A stretch of 64,000 nucleotides of DNA, taken from Candidatus Acidiferrales bacterium (GTDB taxonomy: Bacteria > Acidobacteriota > Terriglobia > Acidiferrales > UBA7541). The notes under the pieces are model-generated. The model had not been told where the DNA came from. It did no database searches and worked only from the letters and a program-made list of their open reading frames with translations. Position 1 is the first letter of the stretch, and every line of letters begins with the position of its first letter. The DNA is taken from contig CAWKHR010000009.1 in NCBI GenBank assembly GCA_963849395.1, positions 55,320 through 119,319 of the forward strand. Direction: 5' to 3'. The position numbers and the translations under genes are program-made. Shown here piece after piece: positions 3,536 to 62,579 of this stretch.

Positions 3536-3670
3536 GAGTTGCTTCCTCCTCGTCGCCTCTGGGCCTAGTTGCCAGCCGACCCGAATTTATCACGCTTTCT
3601 GGAAGTTCCTGATTTGTTGGATAACCGGAAACATAGGTACTAGCAGCCAACTGGGGCTGCAATCTCGGTT

Positions 3671-3988: not shown

Positions 3989-4139
3989 TGCTTATGGGTC
4001 GAGTTTATCTCACTTACCTTGTCCCCGACTTGGGATGAGTCCTGATTTGTTTGAATGAATAGGTCAAGGGAGGAGCACTTGGTGTACAAAAGCTGAACTC
4101 AGCGAGCCCGCTGATTCAGAGACACCAAGGAGGCTCCCC

Positions 4140-5178
4140 ATGGGACCTATGTATTACATCGGACTGGATGTACACAAGCTAAAGATCAGTTACTGCGTGA
4201 AGGACGTCATCGGCAAAATTCATGCCGAAGGATGGATACCCGCTACGCGTTTTGATCTGGATCGGTGGGTGAAGACGCTCCCACAGCCGTGGAGCGCGGC
4301 GATGGAGGCCACTATGTTCACCGGCTGGATCTATGATCACCTGAAACCCCATGCCGCTGTGCTGAAAGTAGCGCATCCCCTGATGCTGCGAGCCATCGCT
4401 GCTGCGAAAAAGAAGAACGACCGTATTGATGCGAATAAAATCTGCGACTGTCTGCGCTGCGATTTTCTGCCCGAGTCTTACATGGCTCCGACAGCCATTC
4501 GCGAACGGCGTCGCACGCTGCGCTACCGTAACCTGCTCGTGCGTCAGATGGTGCAGATGAAGAACAAAGTTGGCATGCTGCTGATGGAAGCCGGTGTCAG
4601 CTACAACAAGCAGAAGCTCCACAAGGCCGGCTATTTCCGTGAACTACTCGCCAGCAACCCAGATATTAATCCGGGGCTGCGCTCGCTGCTGTGCCAGTGC
4701 CGCGAGATGGTGGTGCGGCTGGGGAAGATGGAAAGCTGCTCTGATCCGCTCTCTGCAGCAAGATCGCTTGCTGGCCGAACGCGTGGAGCGGTTGATGAGC
4801 ATCCCGGCGGTCGGGCCGATCACGGCACTGACCTGGGCGCTAGAAGTTGGTGAGGTACAGCGGCTTTCATCGATTAAGAAAGCCATCAGTTATTGCGGGC
4901 TGTGCGGCGCGGAGAAAAGTTCCGGCAACACGGTGCAACGCACGCCATTGTCGAAGCAGCGCAACAAGCATCTGCAGACCACGCTGATCGAAGCGGCTAA
5001 GATGGCCCCACGCTACAGCCCGACGCTGGCACTGCTGTACGACCGCGAGAAGCAGCGAGGGAACGCTAATCGCGCCACGCTGACGGTGGCCCGAAAACTG
5101 GTGGCGTATCTGATGGCCGTGGATCGCGGGCAGACCCATTTTCTGGTGCTGGACCGCGACAGCTGCGCCGCCGCGTAG
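4140..5178 (+). pseudogene. IS110-family (DEDD) transposase, one frame break
   Basis: MYYIGLDVHKLKISYCV.. N-terminus (ORF 4140..4853) switches near 4725-4745 (ggaaag) to the frame of ORF 4594..5178 (..RVERLMSIPAVGPITALTWALEVGE..SKQRNKHLQTTLIEAA). Its 5' leader from 4059 is repeated as a remnant at 17003. Confidence 0.8.
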
Positions 5179-5575
5179 GCTGGCCGGAGAGAGGACGAAA
5201 TTTTTCAGCGCGAGGCCTGCCAGGTCTTGCCGTTAACCCGACTGAGCACGAGAACGCAAGCTCTCGATGCTCCCGTTGATTTGTTTTGAGACTGGCAGGA
5301 ATACACAAACTCAATCTTGCTGGGCAGCCAGACGAGCTGCGCCTGCCAATGGATGTCTGGTTCTATTCACGAATAGAAGCCGCGGCCGAGAGGCCAACAC
5401 CACGCGCTGAGAAAGGCAGAGAAATTTACACCGGCGCTCCTCCCGAGCACATCAGGAGGATTTTGTGCCTCTTGACAAAGACCTATCATAGAAGTCGACG
5501 CAATATAAAAGGGCGCCCTTTATGGAGTAGGGTTTTGAGTGCTAGCTCAACCGCTCCAGAGGAGGAACGCCCTTT

Positions 5576-6643
5576 ATGATCAGTACCAAATATATCGGCA
5601 TGGACGTGCACAAGGAAAGTATTTCGATTGCGGTGATGAACTCGGCCGGCAAGGTGGTGATGGAATGCGTCATCGAGACAAAGGCCAGCGTGATTCTGCA
5701 GTTTTTGAACGGATTGAGCGGAGACTTGCACGTTACGTTTGAGGAAGGAACCGCCGCAGCTTGGCTGTATGATCTGCTGAAGCCGCACGTGGCGCGAGTG
5801 GTGGTATGCAATCCACGTCGCAACGCCTTGCTGAAGGTTGGCAACAAGAGTGACCGCATCGACGCCCGGAAATTAGCCGAACTGCTGCGTGGCAACCAAC
5901 TCCAGCCGGTCTATCACGGTGAGCACGGCCTACGTGCTCTGAAGGAGTTGGTGCGCAGTTATCTGACCATCAGCAAAGATCTCGCCCGGGTGATGACGCG
6001 CGTGAAAGCGTTGTACCGAAGTTGGGGCATTCCCTGCAGCGGCACACAAGTTTACTCGCGGTTGTACCGGGCAACTTGGCTCAGCAAGATCACCGAACCA
6101 GGAGTTCGGCTGCGGGCAGCGTTTTACTTCCAGCAACTTGATGCGTTGCGGACATTGCGCCAGGAAGTGCGGCAGGAATTGTTGGCGGAGAGCAAGAAGC
6201 ACAAGGTCTGGAAACGGCTCTGTGAGATTCCCTCGATTGGCCCGATCCGCGCGGCGGTGGCGCTTGGCATTTTGCAGACTCCGCACCGATTTCGCACCAA
6301 GCGGCAGTTGTGGAGCATCAGTGGTTTTGCGATCGAGACGCGCAGTAGCGCCGATCACCGCCAGGTCAACGGCCAACTGCAAAAAGTGAAGAAGAGAGTA
6401 TCGATTCGCGGCTTGAATCAAAATCACAATCACGATCTGAAGAACCTGTTCAAGGGTGCGGCGGTCAGCGCCTCAACGAAGCCTGGCCCGTTCCAAGAGT
6501 TTTACGAAGCATTGCTGGCCAAGGGCATGCGGCCGGAGATGGCCCGACTTACCTTGGCAAGAAAGATTGCCACCATCGTGTTGATCGTGTGGAAGAGAGG
6601 AGTAAACTTAGACGCTCAATATCTGAAACCACAAACAGTTTGA
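5576..6643 (+). CDS. IS110-family transposase (355 aa)
   Basis: MISTKYIGMDVHKESISIAV.. (DEDD N-terminal motif), ..IPSIGPIRAAVALGILQTP.. C-terminal domain; duplicate at 26187..27254 differs by one residue (L vs F). Confidence 0.9.
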   Translation: MISTKYIGMDVHKESISIAVMNSAGKVVMECVIETKASVILQFLNGLSGDLHVTFEEGTAAAWLYDLLKPHVARVVVCNPRRNALLKVGNKSDRIDARKLAELLRGNQLQPVYHGEHGLRALKELVRSYLTISKDLARVMTRVKALYRSWGIPCSGTQVYSRLYRATWLSKITEPGVRLRAAFYFQQLDALRTLRQEVRQELLAESKKHKVWKRLCEIPSIGPIRAAVALGILQTPHRFRTKRQLWSISGFAIETRSSADHRQVNGQLQKVKKRVSIRGLNQNHNHDLKNLFKGAAVSASTKPGPFQEFYEALLAKGMRPEMARLTLARKIATIVLIVWKRGVNLDAQYLKPQTV

Positions 6644-7080
6644 GTGTCTCTGATCGAGTCCGCTCCATAGCTGAATTTTCTCTGGCGGTGCCGTCGGTTC
6701 TCGAGACACTCGGGTTCTGGGAGCGAGTCGCACCGGTTAGCTAGGCGCAACTCCCGGTCGTGAAGTCTCCCAGTCGACCCTAGGCCCTCTCGGATAACCT
6801 GAAAAAGCGATGGGCCACGAGTCCCAAATAGAACCATGGTCGCCAACTTGACCACCGTTCTGCTTTGCTGGTTTCGGAACTGACAGGCTTCGTTGCCAAC
6901 GAGCATGAAAACCGCTTATAGAGAAAACCCAAACCGTCCGGCCACTGTGCTCTGCCACCGAGCAAATGGTGCGGCTGGTCAGAACAGATCCTGCTCAATA
7001 AGTTGGGCTGCGAAGCAAGAAAACGTCCAGCCGTTGGAGAAGTGTTTTTTCTTGACTTCGCCTTTTATAGAGCTTACCGG
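6644..7080 (+). ncRNA. long 3' non-coding arm of the IS; candidate bridge/seek RNA region
   Basis: 437 nt without credible ORF. 9-bp long-range stem gagtgtctc (6642-6650) / gagacactc (6703-6711). ccggttagct (6733-6742) is the reverse complement of the element terminus with one mismatch. Copy-specific differences are packed in 6669-6763. RNA itself is not demonstrated. Confidence 0.3.
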
Positions 7081-16921: not shown

Positions 16922-17002
16922 AATCTGGAACTTTTCCGTATCTAGAACTCCTTGGTCAAAACTGCGCAAGAAAGATTCCCAGTGCCTGGTAAGTCTAAAT
17001 GT

Positions 17003-17153
17003 ATAGGTCGAGGGAGGCGCGCTTGGTGTAAAAAAGCTGAACTCAGCGGAGGCTGATTCAGAACACTAAAGAGGCTCCCCCATGCAACGTATGTATTAGA
17101 TTGGACTGGATGTTCACAAGCAGAAGATCAGTTATTGCGTGAAGGTCGTGGTC
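17003..17153 (+). mobile_element. 5' remnant of the IS110-family element type found at 4059-5178
   Basis: ataggtcgagggaggcgcgcttggtgtaaaaaagctgaactcagcg..atgtattagattggactggatgttcacaag.. aligns with 4059-4210; contains an in-frame tag and ends after about 20 codons. Confidence 0.7.
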
Positions 17154-25745: not shown

Positions 25746-26186
25746 CCGGTTAGTTCTATAAAAGGCGAAGTCAAGAAAAAACACTTCTCCAACGGCTGGA
25801 CGTTTTCTTGCTTCGCAGCCCAACTGATTGAGCAGGATCTGTTCTGACCAGCCGCACCATTTGCTCGGTGGCAGAGCACAGTGGCCGGACGGTTTGGGTT
25901 TTCTCTATAAGCGGTTTTCATGCTCGTTGGCAACGAAGCCTGTCAGTTCCGAAACCAGCAAAGCAGAACGGTGGTCAAGTTGGCGACCATGGTTCTATTT
26001 GGGACTCGTGGCCCATCGCTTTTTCAGGTTATCCGAGAGGGCCTAGGGTCGACTGGGAGACTGCACGACCGAGGTACGCTGCGCCTAGCTAACCGGTTGA
26101 GACTCGCTCTCGAACCCGAGTGTCTCGAGAACCGACGGCCACCGCCAGAGAAAATCCAGGGATGGAGCGGACTCGATCAGAGACAC
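25746..26186 (-). ncRNA. 3' non-coding arm of IS copy 2; candidate bridge/seek RNA region
   Basis: Counterpart of 6644-7080; differs from copy 1 by 7 changes (4 indels) within 26063-26161. Confidence 0.3.
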
Positions 26187-27254
26187 TCAAACTGTTTGTG
26201 GTTTCAGATATTGAGCGTCGAAGTTTACTCCTCTCTTCCACACGATCAACACGATGGTGGCAATCTTTCTTGCCAAGGTAAGTCGGGCCATCTCCGGCCG
26301 CATGCCCTTGGCCAGCAATGCTTCGTAAAACTCTTGGAACGGGCCAGGCTTCGTTGAGGCGCTGACCGCCGCACCCTTGAACAGGTTCTTCAGATCGTGA
26401 TTGTGATTTTGATTCAAGCCGCGAATCGATACTCTCTTCTTCACTTTTTGCAGTTGGCCGTTGACCTGGCGGTGATCGGCGCTACTGCGCGTCTCGATCG
26501 CAAAACCACTGATGCTCCACAACTGCCGCTTGGTGCGAAATCGGTGCGGAGTCTGCAAAATGCCAAGCGCCACCGCCGCGCGGATCGGGCCAATCGAGGG
26601 AATCTCACAGAGCCGTTTCCAGACCTTGTGCTTCTTGCTCTCCGCCAACAATTCCTGCCGCACTTCCTGGCGCAATGTCCGCAACGCATCAAGTTGCTGG
26701 AAGTAAAACGCTGCCCGCAGCCGAACTCCTGGTTCGGTGATCTTGCTGAGCCAAGTTGCCCGGTACAACCGCGAGTAAACTTGTGTGCCGCTGCAGGGAA
26801 TGCCCCAACTTCGGTACAACGCTTTCACGCGCGTCATCACCCGGGCGAGATCTTTGCTGATGGTCAGATAACTGCGCACCAACTCCTTCAGAGCACGTAG
26901 GCCGTGCTCACCGTGATAGACCGGCTGGAGTTGGTTGCCACGCAGCAGTTCGGCTAATTTCCGGGCGTCGATGCGGTCACTCTTGTTGCCAACCTTCAGC
27001 AAGGCGTTGCGACGTGGATTGCATACCACCACTCGCGCCACGTGCGGCTTCAGCAGATCATACAGCCAAGCTGCGGCGGTTCCTTCCTCAAACGTAACGT
27101 GCAAGTCTCCGCTCAATCCGTTCAAAAACTGCAGAATCACGCTGGCCTTTGTCTCGATGACGCATTCCATCACCACCTTGCCGGCCGAGTTCATCACCGC
27201 AATCGAAATACTTTCCTTGTGCACGTCCATGCCGATATATTTGGTACTGATCAT
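26187..27254 (-). CDS. IS110-family transposase (355 aa)
   Basis: Identical to 5576..6643 product except GVNFDAQ versus GVNLDAQ. Confidence 0.9.
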   Translation of the reverse strand: MISTKYIGMDVHKESISIAVMNSAGKVVMECVIETKASVILQFLNGLSGDLHVTFEEGTAAAWLYDLLKPHVARVVVCNPRRNALLKVGNKSDRIDARKLAELLRGNQLQPVYHGEHGLRALKELVRSYLTISKDLARVMTRVKALYRSWGIPCSGTQVYSRLYRATWLSKITEPGVRLRAAFYFQQLDALRTLRQEVRQELLAESKKHKVWKRLCEIPSIGPIRAAVALGILQTPHRFRTKRQLWSISGFAIETRSSADHRQVNGQLQKVKKRVSIRGLNQNHNHDLKNLFKGAAVSASTKPGPFQEFYEALLAKGMRPEMARLTLARKIATIVLIVWKRGVNFDAQYLKPQTV

Positions 27255-27439
27255 AAAGGGCGTTCCTCCTCTGGAGCGGTTGAGCTAGCACTCAAAACCC
27301 TACTCCATAAAGGGCGCCCTTTTATATTGCGTCGAGTAATCCGACAAGTGGATTCCAGTGCACAGTTGTCGGATAAGCGCATTACTTCGGACCCAGATGG
27401 CCAGTTGACCTGATTGTATAAAGGGTGAGAAGAGAAGAA

Positions 27440-27526
27440 TGGTGCCCGAAAGAGGACTCGAACCTCCACGACCTTGCGGCCACTAGCTCCTGAAGCTAGC
27501 GCGTCTGCCAATTCCGCCATTCGGGC
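27440..27526 (-). tRNA. tRNA-Leu (anticodon CAG)
   Basis: gcccgaa-tg-gcg gaattggcaga cgc-g-ctagc ttCAGga gctag-long variable arm tggccgcaaggtcgt-ggagg ttcgagt cctct-ttcgggc-a-cca; class II cloverleaf folded by hand, encoded CCA. Confidence 0.9.
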
Positions 27527-27772: not shown

Positions 27773-28423
27773 CTATGCGAGTTGACGGCGCATCAGCAAT
27801 GCCAAACCAACTAACCCGCAGCCCATCAGCACAAAGGTTCCGGGCTCCGGAACCGCCGTAGTCGAAAACGCGCCGCTATAATCCAGTCCATACGAGCTGC
27901 CCGCTTCCTGATACACGGTAAACGAAATGGTGTTCGCGCCATTGCTGTTCAGATACGGCTGCAATTGCGACAACCCGAAAATGCCTTCGGTCGAACTCAG
28001 GCACCCTATCGGTTGTGACGAACACGTGGGGTAAGACCCGCCAAGATTGGCGTTGAAAATTGTCGTGCCGTTCACAGCTACCGACGTCGTGTCGTCCGCA
28101 AACACATCCAGCGTCGCGCCGGTAAGCGCTCCACTCAAATTGAATGTGTCGGTGAACGTGACGCCGGTGCCATTTGGCACTGTGTAAAAACCTGGATTCG
28201 ACGTGCTGCCGGTGTTCGCAAACGAAATCCAATTGCTGCCCGCGAGCGGCGAGGACCAGGCGGAATTCGGCGCGATGACTTGTGTAGCACCAGCGTTGGG
28301 AATTCCTAAGGTGGAGGAGTTATTGGTGGTGGCAGCAGAGCTGCCAATTGTTGTGAGCGTGTCTGCTTTCGCGATCAGAAAACAACCACTGATCGCTAAA
28401 ATGCATGCCAATTTTTTGAACAT
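27773..28423 (-). CDS. PEP-CTERM sorting-domain secreted protein
   Basis: Signal peptide MFKKLACILAISGCFLIAKA; C-terminus ..VPEPGTFVLMGCGLVGLALLMRRQLA (PEP motif + TM + basic tail). Confidence 0.85.
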   Translation of the reverse strand: MFKKLACILAISGCFLIAKADTLTTIGSSAATTNNSSTLGIPNAGATQVIAPNSAWSSPLAGSNWISFANTGSTSNPGFYTVPNGTGVTFTDTFNLSGALTGATLDVFADDTTSVAVNGTTIFNANLGGSYPTCSSQPIGCLSSTEGIFGLSQLQPYLNSNGANTISFTVYQEAGSSYGLDYSGAFSTTAVPEPGTFVLMGCGLVGLALLMRRQLA

Positions 28424-57450: not shown

Positions 57451-57490
57451 GGCGCAGAGCCACATTTGCGCCAGCATTCTCCTTCCCTGT

Positions 57491-57549
57491 CTCTAGCACC
57501 GGTGATTTCAACCGGTGCATGCGGGCGCTTTTTGTCCGCATGATAAACG
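57491..57549 (+). repeat. REP-D: 59-nt double-hairpin repeat, left copy
   Basis: ctctagCACCGGTgatttcaACCGGTGcaTGCGGGCgctttttGTCCGCAtgataaacg; 52/59 identical (ungapped, my count) to the reverse complement of 62463-62521. Confidence 0.85.
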
Positions 57550-62462: not shown

Positions 62463-62521
62463 CGTTTATTGTGCGGACACAAAACGTCCGCACGCACCGG
62501 TTGAAATCACCGGTGCTTGAG
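62463..62521 (-). repeat. REP-D: 59-nt double-hairpin repeat, right (inverted) copy
   Basis: cgtttattgTGCGGACacaaaacGTCCGCAcgCACCGGTtgaaatcACCGGTGcttgag. Confidence 0.85.
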
Positions 62522-62579
62522 AAATGTTCTTGGAGATGCGCGGAGGCGAAGATTCTAGGAAAGGAAGATAAGGGGAAAT

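What the first reader, a model, noticed from the sequence alone, without database searches (positions are those of the whole stretch)
6644..7080. Hypervariable 95-nt patch in the long 3' non-coding arm of two otherwise near-identical IS110-family copies: candidate reprogrammed bridge/seek RNA
Copies 5495-7080 and 25746-27335 give identical translations in several reading frames across the transposase region. The only coding change I see is at 6610 (tta vs ttc, L/F). In contrast, seven differences, four of them indels, are packed into 6669-6763 (copy 2: 26063-26161): ag/cc, a/g, +g, tgg/ga, gc/tca, actcc/gcgtacct and a/c. The net +4 nt matches the arm lengths of 437 vs 441. Outside the patch the remaining ~300 nt of the arm differ by only three substitutions that I saw (around 7001, 7072, 7075). 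The arm has a 9-bp long-range stem (6642-6650 / 6703-6711). It also contains ccggttagct (6733-6742), the reverse complement of the element's last 10 nt with one mismatch in each copy (agcttaccgg / aactaaccgg). The two insertion sites share no obvious similarity. Established knowledge: 2024 work on IS110-family elements showed that a structured non-coding RNA (bridge RNA, or seekRNA in IS1111-type elements where it lies 3' of the transposase) carries separate loops pairing with donor ends and with target DNA. A long 3' arm, a donor-end-complementary segment and copy-specific changes clustered beside it fit that model. I could not find convincing patch-to-flank complementarity by eye.
Basis: partly seen in the sequence, partly recalled or inferred. 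Interest (0 to 1): 0.75.

Follow-up and report, generated by a model that had tools for sequence, protein, structure and literature searches.

The report
Variant guide-RNA scaffold in one IS copy
Two copies of an RNA-guided jumping gene (IS1111 type, from an acidobacterium) carry the same target- and donor-reading RNA segments, and the cluster of differences in one copy lies in the RNA scaffold, so it is probably a damaged or remodelled one-off, not a retargeted guide.

Summary
Copy 1 (5495-7080, +) and copy 2 (25746-27335, -) differ at 19 aligned columns, 15 of them in 6669-6763.

The 3' arm does encode a bridge/seek-type RNA. A covariance model built only from 59 relatives (71-80% transposase identity) hits both arms, at 151 bits (copy 2) and 105 bits (copy 1).

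Comparison with 80 acidobacterial relatives locates three guide segments by covariation:
- 6733-6742 pairs with the 10 nt to the right of the insertion point. These 10 nt are target DNA, not the element's end.
- 6770-6778 equals the left junction.
- 6828-6834 equals the element's right terminus.

All three guides are identical in both copies. Both copies sit in the same REP-like palindromic target.

The copy-2 version of the patch is unchanged in 10 metagenomic copies at six or more further junctions. It is also kept in relatives about 10% diverged. The copy-1 version was found nowhere else.

Its changes hit family-invariant scaffold positions: they weaken P2/P3 and delete half of P5. Yet they make domain 2 more stable than 99% of random mutants.

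Retargeting is therefore not supported. The most likely reading is a singleton copy hit by complex local mutation. The element is a new member of a known kind.

The parts
5497..7073 (+). Copy 1 of the IS1111-type element proper. The boundaries are uncertain by 1-3 nt because GAC on the left and A(G/A)C on the right overlap the exchanged core.
   Evidence: Alignment of 62 family members and their flanks. Empty target sites read ...GC GAC TAATCAGG.... A head-to-tail junction TATAGAACGCGATATAAAAGG occurs in L035.
5576..6643 (+). Transposase gene, 355 aa. Leu at codon 6608-6610, where 61 of 62 family members have Phe.
   Evidence: PF01548 plus PF02371. NF033542 at 130 bits, below its 140-bit cut-off. 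IS621 8wt6 at E=2e-6. Codon count.
5504..5515 (+). Left subterminal inverted repeat TATAAAAGGGCG, preceded by the 7-nt extension GACGCAA (5497-5503).
7059..7069 (+). Right subterminal inverted repeat CGCCTTTTATA.
6641..6787 (+). Match of copy 1 to the family RNA model R1 (105.3 bits). Domain 1 is 6642-6711 (P1 6642-6650/6703-6711, P2/P3 hairpin about 6665-6693). Domain 2 runs from 6712.
6669..6763 (+). The variable patch. Copy-1-specific changes break pairs in P2 and P3, alter the invariant TTCGAGAG and GTCTCA, and delete the 5' strand of hairpin P5. They also create CTGGGAG (6716-6722), the exact reverse complement of CTCCCAG (6766-6772).
6733..6742 (+). T guide CCGGTTAGCT. It is complementary to the top strand of the target's right flank plus core (7080..7071) and identical in both copies.
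   Evidence: Mutual information 6736/R6, 6737/R5, 6734/R8. Mean match 8.88/10 against 7.25 +/- 0.13 in 2000 permutations.
6770..6778 (+). B guide CCAGTCGAC. It is identical to the top strand of the left junction (5491-5499), so it would pair with the bottom strand. Identical in both copies.
   Evidence: Mutual information 6774/L-2 = 1.01 bit and 6773/L-3. Flank match 3.39/6 against 2.40 +/- 0.11.
6828..6834 (+). Donor (right-end) guide ATAGAAC. It is identical to the element's right terminus plus core (7067-7073). Identical in both copies and outside the patch.
   Evidence: Three independent concordant variants in relatives: G/G at 6829/7068, 6830/7069 and 6832/7071.
7071..7080 (+). Core plus target right arm (AGCTTACCGG). 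This is not element sequence. It is the site of the differences at 7072 and 7075.
   Evidence: It varies among otherwise identical copies and matches empty-site right arms.
5495..5496 (+). TC, the last two bases of the target's left side. They are read by the B guide.
25746..27335 (-). Copy 2, with the family-consensus RNA. Transposase 26187-27254, RNA model match 26039-26189 (151.3 bits), T guide 26087-26096, B guide 26048-26056, donor guide 25992-25998.
4041..5492 (+). A second, unrelated IS110-family element (IS-X) with a frameshifted transposase (4140-4853 and 4594-5178). Its right end, CTTGACAAAGACCTATCATAGA, abuts copy 1. The two elements sit in tandem inside one REP-like target.

Best explanation
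**The element (shown).** The 3' arm of this IS1111-type element encodes a structured bridge/seek RNA. It starts at the transposase stop codon and runs for at least about 195 nt (6642 to about 6840).

**Guides (shown by comparison).**
- Segment 6733-6742 is complementary to the 10 nt immediately right of the insertion point.
- Segment 6770-6778 is identical to the left junction.
- Segment 6828-6834 is identical to the element's right terminus plus core.

**Mechanism (inferred from IS621 and ISEc11).** The transposase, loaded with this RNA, would pair these segments with opposite strands of a REP-like palindromic target (...TCCGGTAAC-GC-GAC-TAAYCRGG...) and with the joined ends of the excised circle. 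Strands would be exchanged at the (A)C core.

**The two copies (shown).** Both carry identical guides and sit in this same target type. Copy 1 lies in tandem behind another insertion sequence.

**The patch (shown).** The 95-nt patch is a copy-1-specific departure from the family scaffold, not a change of address. Copy 2 has the consensus.

**Origin of the patch (inferred).** Most likely a few complex local mutations hit the hairpin-rich DNA of copy 1. At least one looks like quasi-palindrome template switching. The resulting RNA is probably impaired. Copy 1 could still be mobilised in trans by the intact RNA of copy 2.
For: **RNA identity**
- Model R1 was built from relatives only. It scores copy 2 at 151.3 bits and copy 1 at 105.3 bits.
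- In the proposed structure 92.7% of cells are paired, against 38-56% when partners are slid. Both-side changes occur in P1, P3 and P5.
- The whole arm is as conserved as the coding region.

**Guides**
- Mutual information peaks lie exactly at 6773-6774/L-3,L-2 and at 6734, 6736, 6737/R8, R6, R5.
- Permutation tests: 8.88 against 7.25 +/- 0.13, and 3.39 against 2.40 +/- 0.11.
- The donor guide shows three concordant rare variants.
- Empty target sites were found, and a head-to-tail junction in L035.

**The patch is not an address**
- Ten copies with the copy-2 transposase carry the copy-2 patch unchanged at six or more other junction contexts.
- Fifteen relatives about 10% diverged keep the same scaffold.

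**Copy 1 is the derived singleton**
- Its patch changes hit invariant columns.
- Its model score equals that of relatives with only 71% transposase identity.
- The copy-1 20-mer has 0 metagenome hits.
- No copy-1-type translation exists among 84 protein hits.
- Phe to Leu falls at a residue invariant in 61 of 62 members.

**Non-random mutation**
- CTGGGAG is the exact reverse complement of CTCCCAG 44 nt downstream.
- Only 1.1% of random domain-2 mutants are as stable.
- A second near-identical pair, L087/L089, has 5 of 8 differences in the P3 hairpin.
Against: - No transcript or protein-binding data exist. Expression of the RNA is inferred by analogy.
- The fourth guide expected from IS621 (for the element's left end) was not found.
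- Template switching cleanly explains only one of the five change clusters.
- The whole-RNA stability test is only marginal (5.8%).
- The gain in domain-2 stability could also mean selection for a new fold, not damage.
- An unsampled divergent donor for gene conversion cannot be excluded, because the rest of this genome is not available.
Confidence: 0.6

Rival explanations
1. Reprogrammed guide. The patch changes the target- or donor-reading loops, so copy 1 is addressed to a different site from copy 2.
For: The patch lies within the functional RNA and surrounds the T guide. Natural redirection by replacing the target-matching bases is documented for ISEc11/ISXne4 (PMC11187229).
Against: All three covariation-defined guides are identical in both copies.

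Both copies match their right flank at 9/10. Their left-flank matches are 4/6 and 3/6. Both are in the same REP-like target.

No patch column outside the T guide shows covariation with flank positions above the clade background.

The changed positions are invariant in 59 relatives that use many different target variants.
Confidence: 0.03
2. Mosaic element. The patch was copied into copy 1 by recombination or gene conversion from a divergent, unsampled relative's RNA gene.
For: About 16% divergence is confined to 95 nt, with identical runs of 28 and 17 nt in between. That is the usual signature of a conversion tract. Several related and unrelated IS110-family elements coexist in these genomes.
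Against: No donor was found in the window, in 80 genome loci, in 15 metagenome loci, by an exact 20-mer scan or in protein space.

The copy-1 states are absent from every relative and fall on family-invariant positions. A functional donor would be expected to keep those positions.
Confidence: 0.2
3. Adaptive remodelling. The changes are co-selected and give a working RNA with an altered domain 2. In it the T guide sits inside a new helix (6728-6736/6754-6763) closed by CUGGGAG/CUCCCAG. This could act, for example, as a self-inhibited or regulatory variant.
For: Domain 2 of copy 1 folds at -32.1 kcal/mol against -25.2 for copy 2. It is more stable than 98.9% of random mutants carrying the same mutational load.

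The A-to-G change at 6720 turns an A.C mismatch of the conserved helix into a G-C pair.
Against: It is a singleton, with no sign of spread.

Domain 1 pairs are broken without compensation and P5 is lost.

The same copy also carries a substitution at an invariant transposase residue.

The model score drops by 46 bits.
Confidence: 0.12
4. Assembly or consensus artefact. The patch is a mis-called consensus, or reads from another strain's variant were folded into one repeat copy.
For: Related genomes in the collections are metagenome-assembled, many from long reads. One of the changes is a single-G loss in a G run.
Against: The other 1.5 kb of copy 1 are essentially identical to copy 2, so the local error rate is low.

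The changes include a 4-nt deletion and multi-base replacements that build an exact 7-nt inverted repeat. That is not a typical base-calling error.

A strain-mixture origin would still need a real variant to exist somewhere.
Confidence: 0.05

Closest known systems
IS1111-group seekRNA elements (ISEc11, ISPa11, ISKpn4; Siddiquee et al. 2024, PMC11187229)
   Same: - DEDD transposase and subterminal inverted repeats with a 7-nt left extension.
- Short left end and long 3' non-coding region.
- The RNA begins just after the stop codon.
- A segment complementary to the top strand of the target lies 5' of a segment complementary to the bottom strand, and the two overlap at the insertion point.
- Target bases flank the donor.
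- The target is a palindromic repeat, as for ISPa11 (searches compared).
   Different: - The transposase is under 30% identical to any named IS on plasmids and falls below the NCBIfam cut-off.
- Only the SG of the C-terminal GL-P----S(t)G motif is present (read by eye).
- The conserved RNA is longer than the 82-96-nt peak seekRNAs.
- It carries a donor-end guide about 185 nt after the stop. The seekRNA paper passages read here do not mention such a guide.
IS110-group bridge RNA of IS621 (Durrant et al. 2024, PMC11208160; structures 8wt6-8wt9)
   Same: - One RNA reads both target and donor by short base-pairing on opposite strands around a shared core.
- Guides sit beside conserved stems.
- Durrant et al. 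predicted bridge RNAs in the right end of 93% of IS1111 elements.
   Different: - Here the RNA is 3' of the gene, not 5'.
- The subterminal repeats are long.
- Only three of the four expected guides could be located.
- The core appears to be (A)C, not CT.
- No Rfam family matches.
REP-targeting IS110/IS1111 elements (ISPa11, ISPpu9, ISPpu10)
   Same: Insertion occurs at a fixed position and orientation in a repeated extragenic palindrome. Several elements accumulate in or next to the same repeats.
   Different: The host phylum is different (Acidobacteriota, Terriglobia) and so is the repeat family. The repeat unit extends about 48 nt to the right of the insertion point.

Membership tests
IS110 family (DEDD RNA-guided transposases) | Transposase with an N-terminal DEDD/RuvC-like domain and a C-terminal Transposase_20 domain | tested here: met
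   PF01548 at E=1.5e-18 and PF02371 at E=4.2e-9. NF033542 at 130.4 bits, just under its 140-bit cut-off. IS621 chain 8wt6_A at E=1.9e-6.
IS1111 group | Subterminal inverted repeats of 7-17 bp with short terminal extensions (7 nt on the left) | tested here: met
   TATAAAAGGGCG at 5504-5515 and CGCCTTTTATA at 7059-7069. The left extension GACGCAA is conserved in nearly all 62 members.
IS1111 group | Short left end and long non-coding region downstream of the transposase gene | tested here: met
   79 nt lie upstream of the ATG and about 430 nt downstream of the stop.
IS1111 group | Transposase belongs to the IS1111 clade, with the C-terminal GL-P----S(t)G motif | tested here: inconclusive
   SG is present (..LWSISGFAIE..), but no G/P lies at the motif spacing (my reading of the translation). 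The best named relatives are ISAtu7, ISEc45, ISSso6 and ISMno22 at under 30% identity. No ISfinder phylogeny was available.
seekRNA / bridge RNA | Conserved structured RNA encoded in the non-coding arm | tested here: met
   The covariance model from relatives hits both copies at 151 and 105 bits. 92.7% of cells are paired against 38-56% when slid, with compensatory changes in P1, P3 and P5.
seekRNA / bridge RNA | [quoted passage not shown] | tested here: met
   T guide at 6733-6742 and B guide at 6770-6778. Supported by mutual information and permutation tests and by empty sites.
seekRNA / bridge RNA | Segments that pair with both donor ends (left and right donor guides) | tested here: inconclusive
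   The right-end guide at 6828-6834 is supported by three concordant variants. No guide for the left end was found.
seekRNA / bridge RNA | The RNA is transcribed, binds the transposase and is required for circle formation and insertion | not testable with these tools
   There are no expression or biochemical data. No sigma-70-like promoter lies inside the element, as reported for ISEc11.
Naturally reprogrammed seekRNA (ISEc11 versus ISXne4 type) | Differences between related elements fall on the target-matching bases and match a different target | tested here: not met
   The guides are identical in copy 1 and copy 2, the differences are in the scaffold, and both targets belong to the same repeat family.

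The most novel reading that the evidence does not exclude
The copy-1 patch is not damage but a selected, rapid remodelling of a bridge/seek RNA scaffold. Domain 2 would be rebuilt so that the target guide is enclosed in a new helix, giving a self-inhibited or regulatory RNA variant.

More generally, the hairpin-rich DNA of these RNA genes may be a mutational hot spot where template switching generates scaffold variants in bursts.
Probability: 0.12. Interest if true: 0.6.

Novelty: new member of a known kind. Interest (0 to 1): 0.3.

Why it matters
The element adds a well-resolved acidobacterial clade to the RNA-guided IS1111-type recombinases. Its target guides, one donor guide, its core and its natural REP-like target are all defined from sequence alone. 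That makes it a ready candidate for testing how IS1111-type RNAs read donor ends.

For the finding itself the result is mainly corrective. Clustered differences in a guide-RNA gene are not in themselves evidence of retargeting. Here the address segments are untouched.

The one unusual residue is the burst of structured changes in a single copy. It would matter only if the copy proved functional, or if the pattern proved recurrent.

Tried and rejected
- **Rfam.** Scans at gathering and at E<=10 found only a tRNA and noise. There is no curated family for this RNA.
- **Exact look-up of the copy-1 transposase.** It is not on record.
- **Exact 20-mer of the copy-1 patch in metagenome contigs.** 0 hits.
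- **Search for a donor of the patch inside the window.** Only chance-level 9-12-mers were found.
- **Guide for the element's left end.** 6891-6896 CGT(T/C)GC is complementary to GCGACG at the left junction. It does not follow the left-end variants of L019 and L090, so I rejected it.
- **CCG(C/T)TCCAT in domain 1 as a right-end guide.** It is complementary to the right end only with a conserved mismatch and shows no covariation, so I did not adopt it.
- **TTATAGAG at 6916-6923** (identical to the right end). It is not conserved in relatives and is within chance expectation.
- **Orthology of the copy-1 locus with L097/L102.** Rejected, because the similarity stops after about 48 nt.
- **Homology of the copy-1 and L001 left flanks.** It is limited to 25 nt resembling another element's right end.
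- **Junction promoter.** Only a weak TTGACT-17-CAATAT is seen by eye, and the scan finds nothing in the linear element.
- **Failed runs.** The first simulation timed out and was repeated. One fold call failed on a length limit.

Full report
**Observation**

The two copies align from 5495-7080 (+) to 27335-25746 (-) with 19 differing columns.
- One is in the transposase (6610, Leu in copy 1, Phe in copy 2).
- Fifteen lie between 6669 and 6763.
- The rest are 7000, 7072 and 7075.

At least seven of about nine mutational events inside the element fall in 95 of about 1577 columns. By my own binomial estimate the chance of that is about 1e-7.

**What the element is**

The 355-aa protein has the DEDD_Tnp_IS110 and Transposase_20 domains. 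It scores just under the NCBIfam cut-off for IS110-family RNA-guided transposases. It is distantly related to IS621 and under 30% identical to any named IS on plasmids.

The element has subterminal inverted repeats (5504-5515 and 7059-7069), a 7-nt left extension GACGCAA, a short left end and a long right end. This is the IS1111-group layout described in PMC11187229 and PMC11208160. Rfam has no matching family.

**More copies**

The copy-2 protein is on record in public assemblies. Ten places were fetched (L001-L010). All ten carry the copy-2 version of the patch without a single change, although they represent at least six further junction contexts.

Among these otherwise invariant copies, the only variable stretch is the last 9 nt of the aligned block (GCTTACCGG, ACTAACCGG, GCTAACCGG, GCTAACTGG). 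That was the first sign that these bases are target, not element.

A scan of species-representative genomes gave 80 loci from Acidobacteriota/Terriglobia with 71-80% identical transposases. The region after the stop codon is conserved in all of them. The whole arm is as conserved as the coding sequence.

**Guides**

I aligned junctions on the subterminal repeats and scanned all RNA columns against all junction positions.
- *B guide.* The strongest signals are 6774 with the base two positions left of GACGCAA (1.01 bit) and 6773 with the next base.
- *T guide.* The next are 6736, 6737 and 6734 with positions 6, 5 and 8 right of TATAG.
- *Register.* 6733-6742 is the reverse complement of 7080-7071. 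6770-6778 is identical to 5491-5499.
- *Permutation tests.* These give 8.88/10 against 7.25 +/- 0.13, and 3.39/6 against 2.40 +/- 0.11. No permutation of 2000 reached the observed values.
- *Donor guide.* A third segment, 6828-6834 ATAGAAC, equals the right terminus plus core (7067-7073). It follows three independent rare variants of that terminus: TAGAGAAC, TATGGAAC and TATAGGAC.
- *Left-end guide.* None could be found.

The order, with the top-strand match 5' of the bottom-strand match and an overlap at the insertion point, is the one reported for IS1111-type seekRNAs.

**Target**

Flanks across the family form an imperfect palindrome. Uninterrupted copies occur in the flanking DNA of related loci, for example TCCGGTAACGC-GAC-TAATCAGGAGTT. 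One similar site lies in the window at about 3609-3631 on the minus strand.

Insertion gives ...GC-GAC-GCAA... on the left and ...TATAG-AAC-TAAT... on the right. Exchange is therefore at or next to the AC of GAC. L035 shows the predicted head-to-tail junction TATAGAACGCGATATAAAAGG.

- Copy 2 has both arms of such a repeat (cacttgtcggattacTC | AACTAACCGGg).
- Copy 1 has the right arm (AGCTTACCGGACAAGT), but on its left it abuts the right end of another IS110-family element with a frameshifted transposase (4041-5492). The left arm of the repeat lies beyond that element.

So the two sites are of the same kind. The differences at 7072 and 7075 are core/target bases.

**Structure**

RNAalifold and a hand-refined structure (P1, P2, P3, a GAGAG/CUCNC helix, TAGG/CCUA and hairpin P5) give 92.7% paired cells against 38-56% when partners are slid. 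Compensatory changes occur in P1, P3 and P5.

A covariance model built from the 59 distinct relatives, without the window copies, scores copy 2 at 151.3 bits and copy 1 at 105.3 bits. Family members score 132-182. Only the most distant ones (71-72% transposase identity) are as low as copy 1.

**What the patch is**

Copy 2 agrees with the family at every patch position that is conserved. Copy 1 departs in five places:
- CCATC to CCATA and loss of a G from GGTGG, which costs two or three P2 pairs;
- G to A in P3;
- TTCGAGAG to TTCTGGGAG;
- GTCTCAA to GTCGCA;
- loss of the 5' strand of P5.

None of the three guides is touched.

The copy-1 states were found nowhere else:
- not in 80 genome loci;
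- not in 15 metagenome loci of about 90% identical relatives that share the same T guide;
- not by an exact 20-mer scan;
- not among proteins predicted from the spurious ORF that crosses the patch.

Outside the patch, copy 1 also has the derived state at 6610 and an uncommon base at 7000. Phe at 6610 is kept in 61 of 62 members. At 7000 the relatives mostly have C, G or T. Copy 1 is thus a derived singleton.

**Not plain decay**

The changes are not structurally random. The T insertion and the A-to-G change create CTGGGAG (6716-6722). This is the exact reverse complement of CTCCCAG (6766-6772), turns an A.C mismatch of the conserved helix into G-C, and extends the helix. T to G at 6730 and C to A at 6763 extend a second helix (6728-6736/6754-6763).

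Domain 2 of copy 1 folds at -32.1 kcal/mol against -25.2 for copy 2. It is more stable than 98.9% of random mutants with the same load. For the whole RNA the figure is 94%.

One other near-identical pair in the family, L087/L089, has five of eight differences in the P3 hairpin.

I read this as hairpin-associated complex mutation (template switching within quasi-palindromes). Gene conversion from an unsampled donor and adaptive remodelling are the live alternatives. An artefact is unlikely but should be checked.

**Verdict**

The proposed meaning, retargeting, is not supported:
- the address segments are the same in both copies;
- the supposed donor-end match is a target match;
- the patch does not vary with the site in any other copy.

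The element is a new, cleanly resolvable member of the IS1111-type RNA-guided recombinases. The copy-1 patch is most probably an impaired scaffold.

Noticed in passing
window 4041-5492 (+): This is a second IS110-family element with its own subterminal repeats (GAATGAATAGGTC / GACCTATCATAG). Its transposase is split by a frameshift (4140-4853 and 4594-5178). Copy 1 is inserted directly behind its right end, so two elements share one REP-like target.
   Followed up: partly
window 16985-17150 (+): This 64-nt stretch is 84% identical to the left end of that second element (4041-4104). A start-of-transposase-like sequence follows it, but no intact gene. It looks like a remnant of another copy.
   Followed up: no
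window about 3609-3631 (-): TCCGGTTATCCAACAAATCAGG resembles an uninterrupted copy of the family's palindromic target.
   Followed up: partly
window 27443-27526 (-): A tRNA gene (54 bits) lies about 110 nt from the left end of copy 2. A PEP-CTERM-type secreted protein ORF follows at 27773-28423.
   Followed up: no
window 57490-57549 and 62463-62522: A 60-nt inverted repeat pair (88% complementary) lies 4.9 kb apart. Each arm contains its own small palindrome (CACCGGTGATTTCAACCGGTG). Unexplained.
   Followed up: no
L035 about 4000-5302: Two family elements lie head to tail, with the junction TATAGAACGCGATATAAAAGGGCG and a second full RNA match at 5149-5302. This is either a tandem dimer or an insertion into the circle-junction-like site.
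   Followed up: partly
L048 1563-1710: A weaker match to the RNA model (62.7 bits) lies upstream of the intact element. It is possibly a solo or decayed RNA gene.
   Followed up: no
L087 versus L089 (same metagenome-assembled genome), window-equivalent 6670-6684: These near-identical copies differ at 8 positions, 5 of them in the P3 hairpin of the RNA. This is a second instance of differences clustering in an RNA hairpin.
   Followed up: partly
L001/L002 versus L007/L009: Two direct copies lie 6.3 kb apart on one contig. Other samples carry the left flank of one joined to the right flank of the other. This is consistent with deletion between copies or with assembly across the repeat.
   Followed up: no
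window 7016-7024 and 7043-7054: The inverted repeat CAAGAAAAC / GTTTTTTCTTG lies just inside the right end and overlaps the TTGAC hexamer. It could be a stem or part of a junction promoter region.
   Followed up: no
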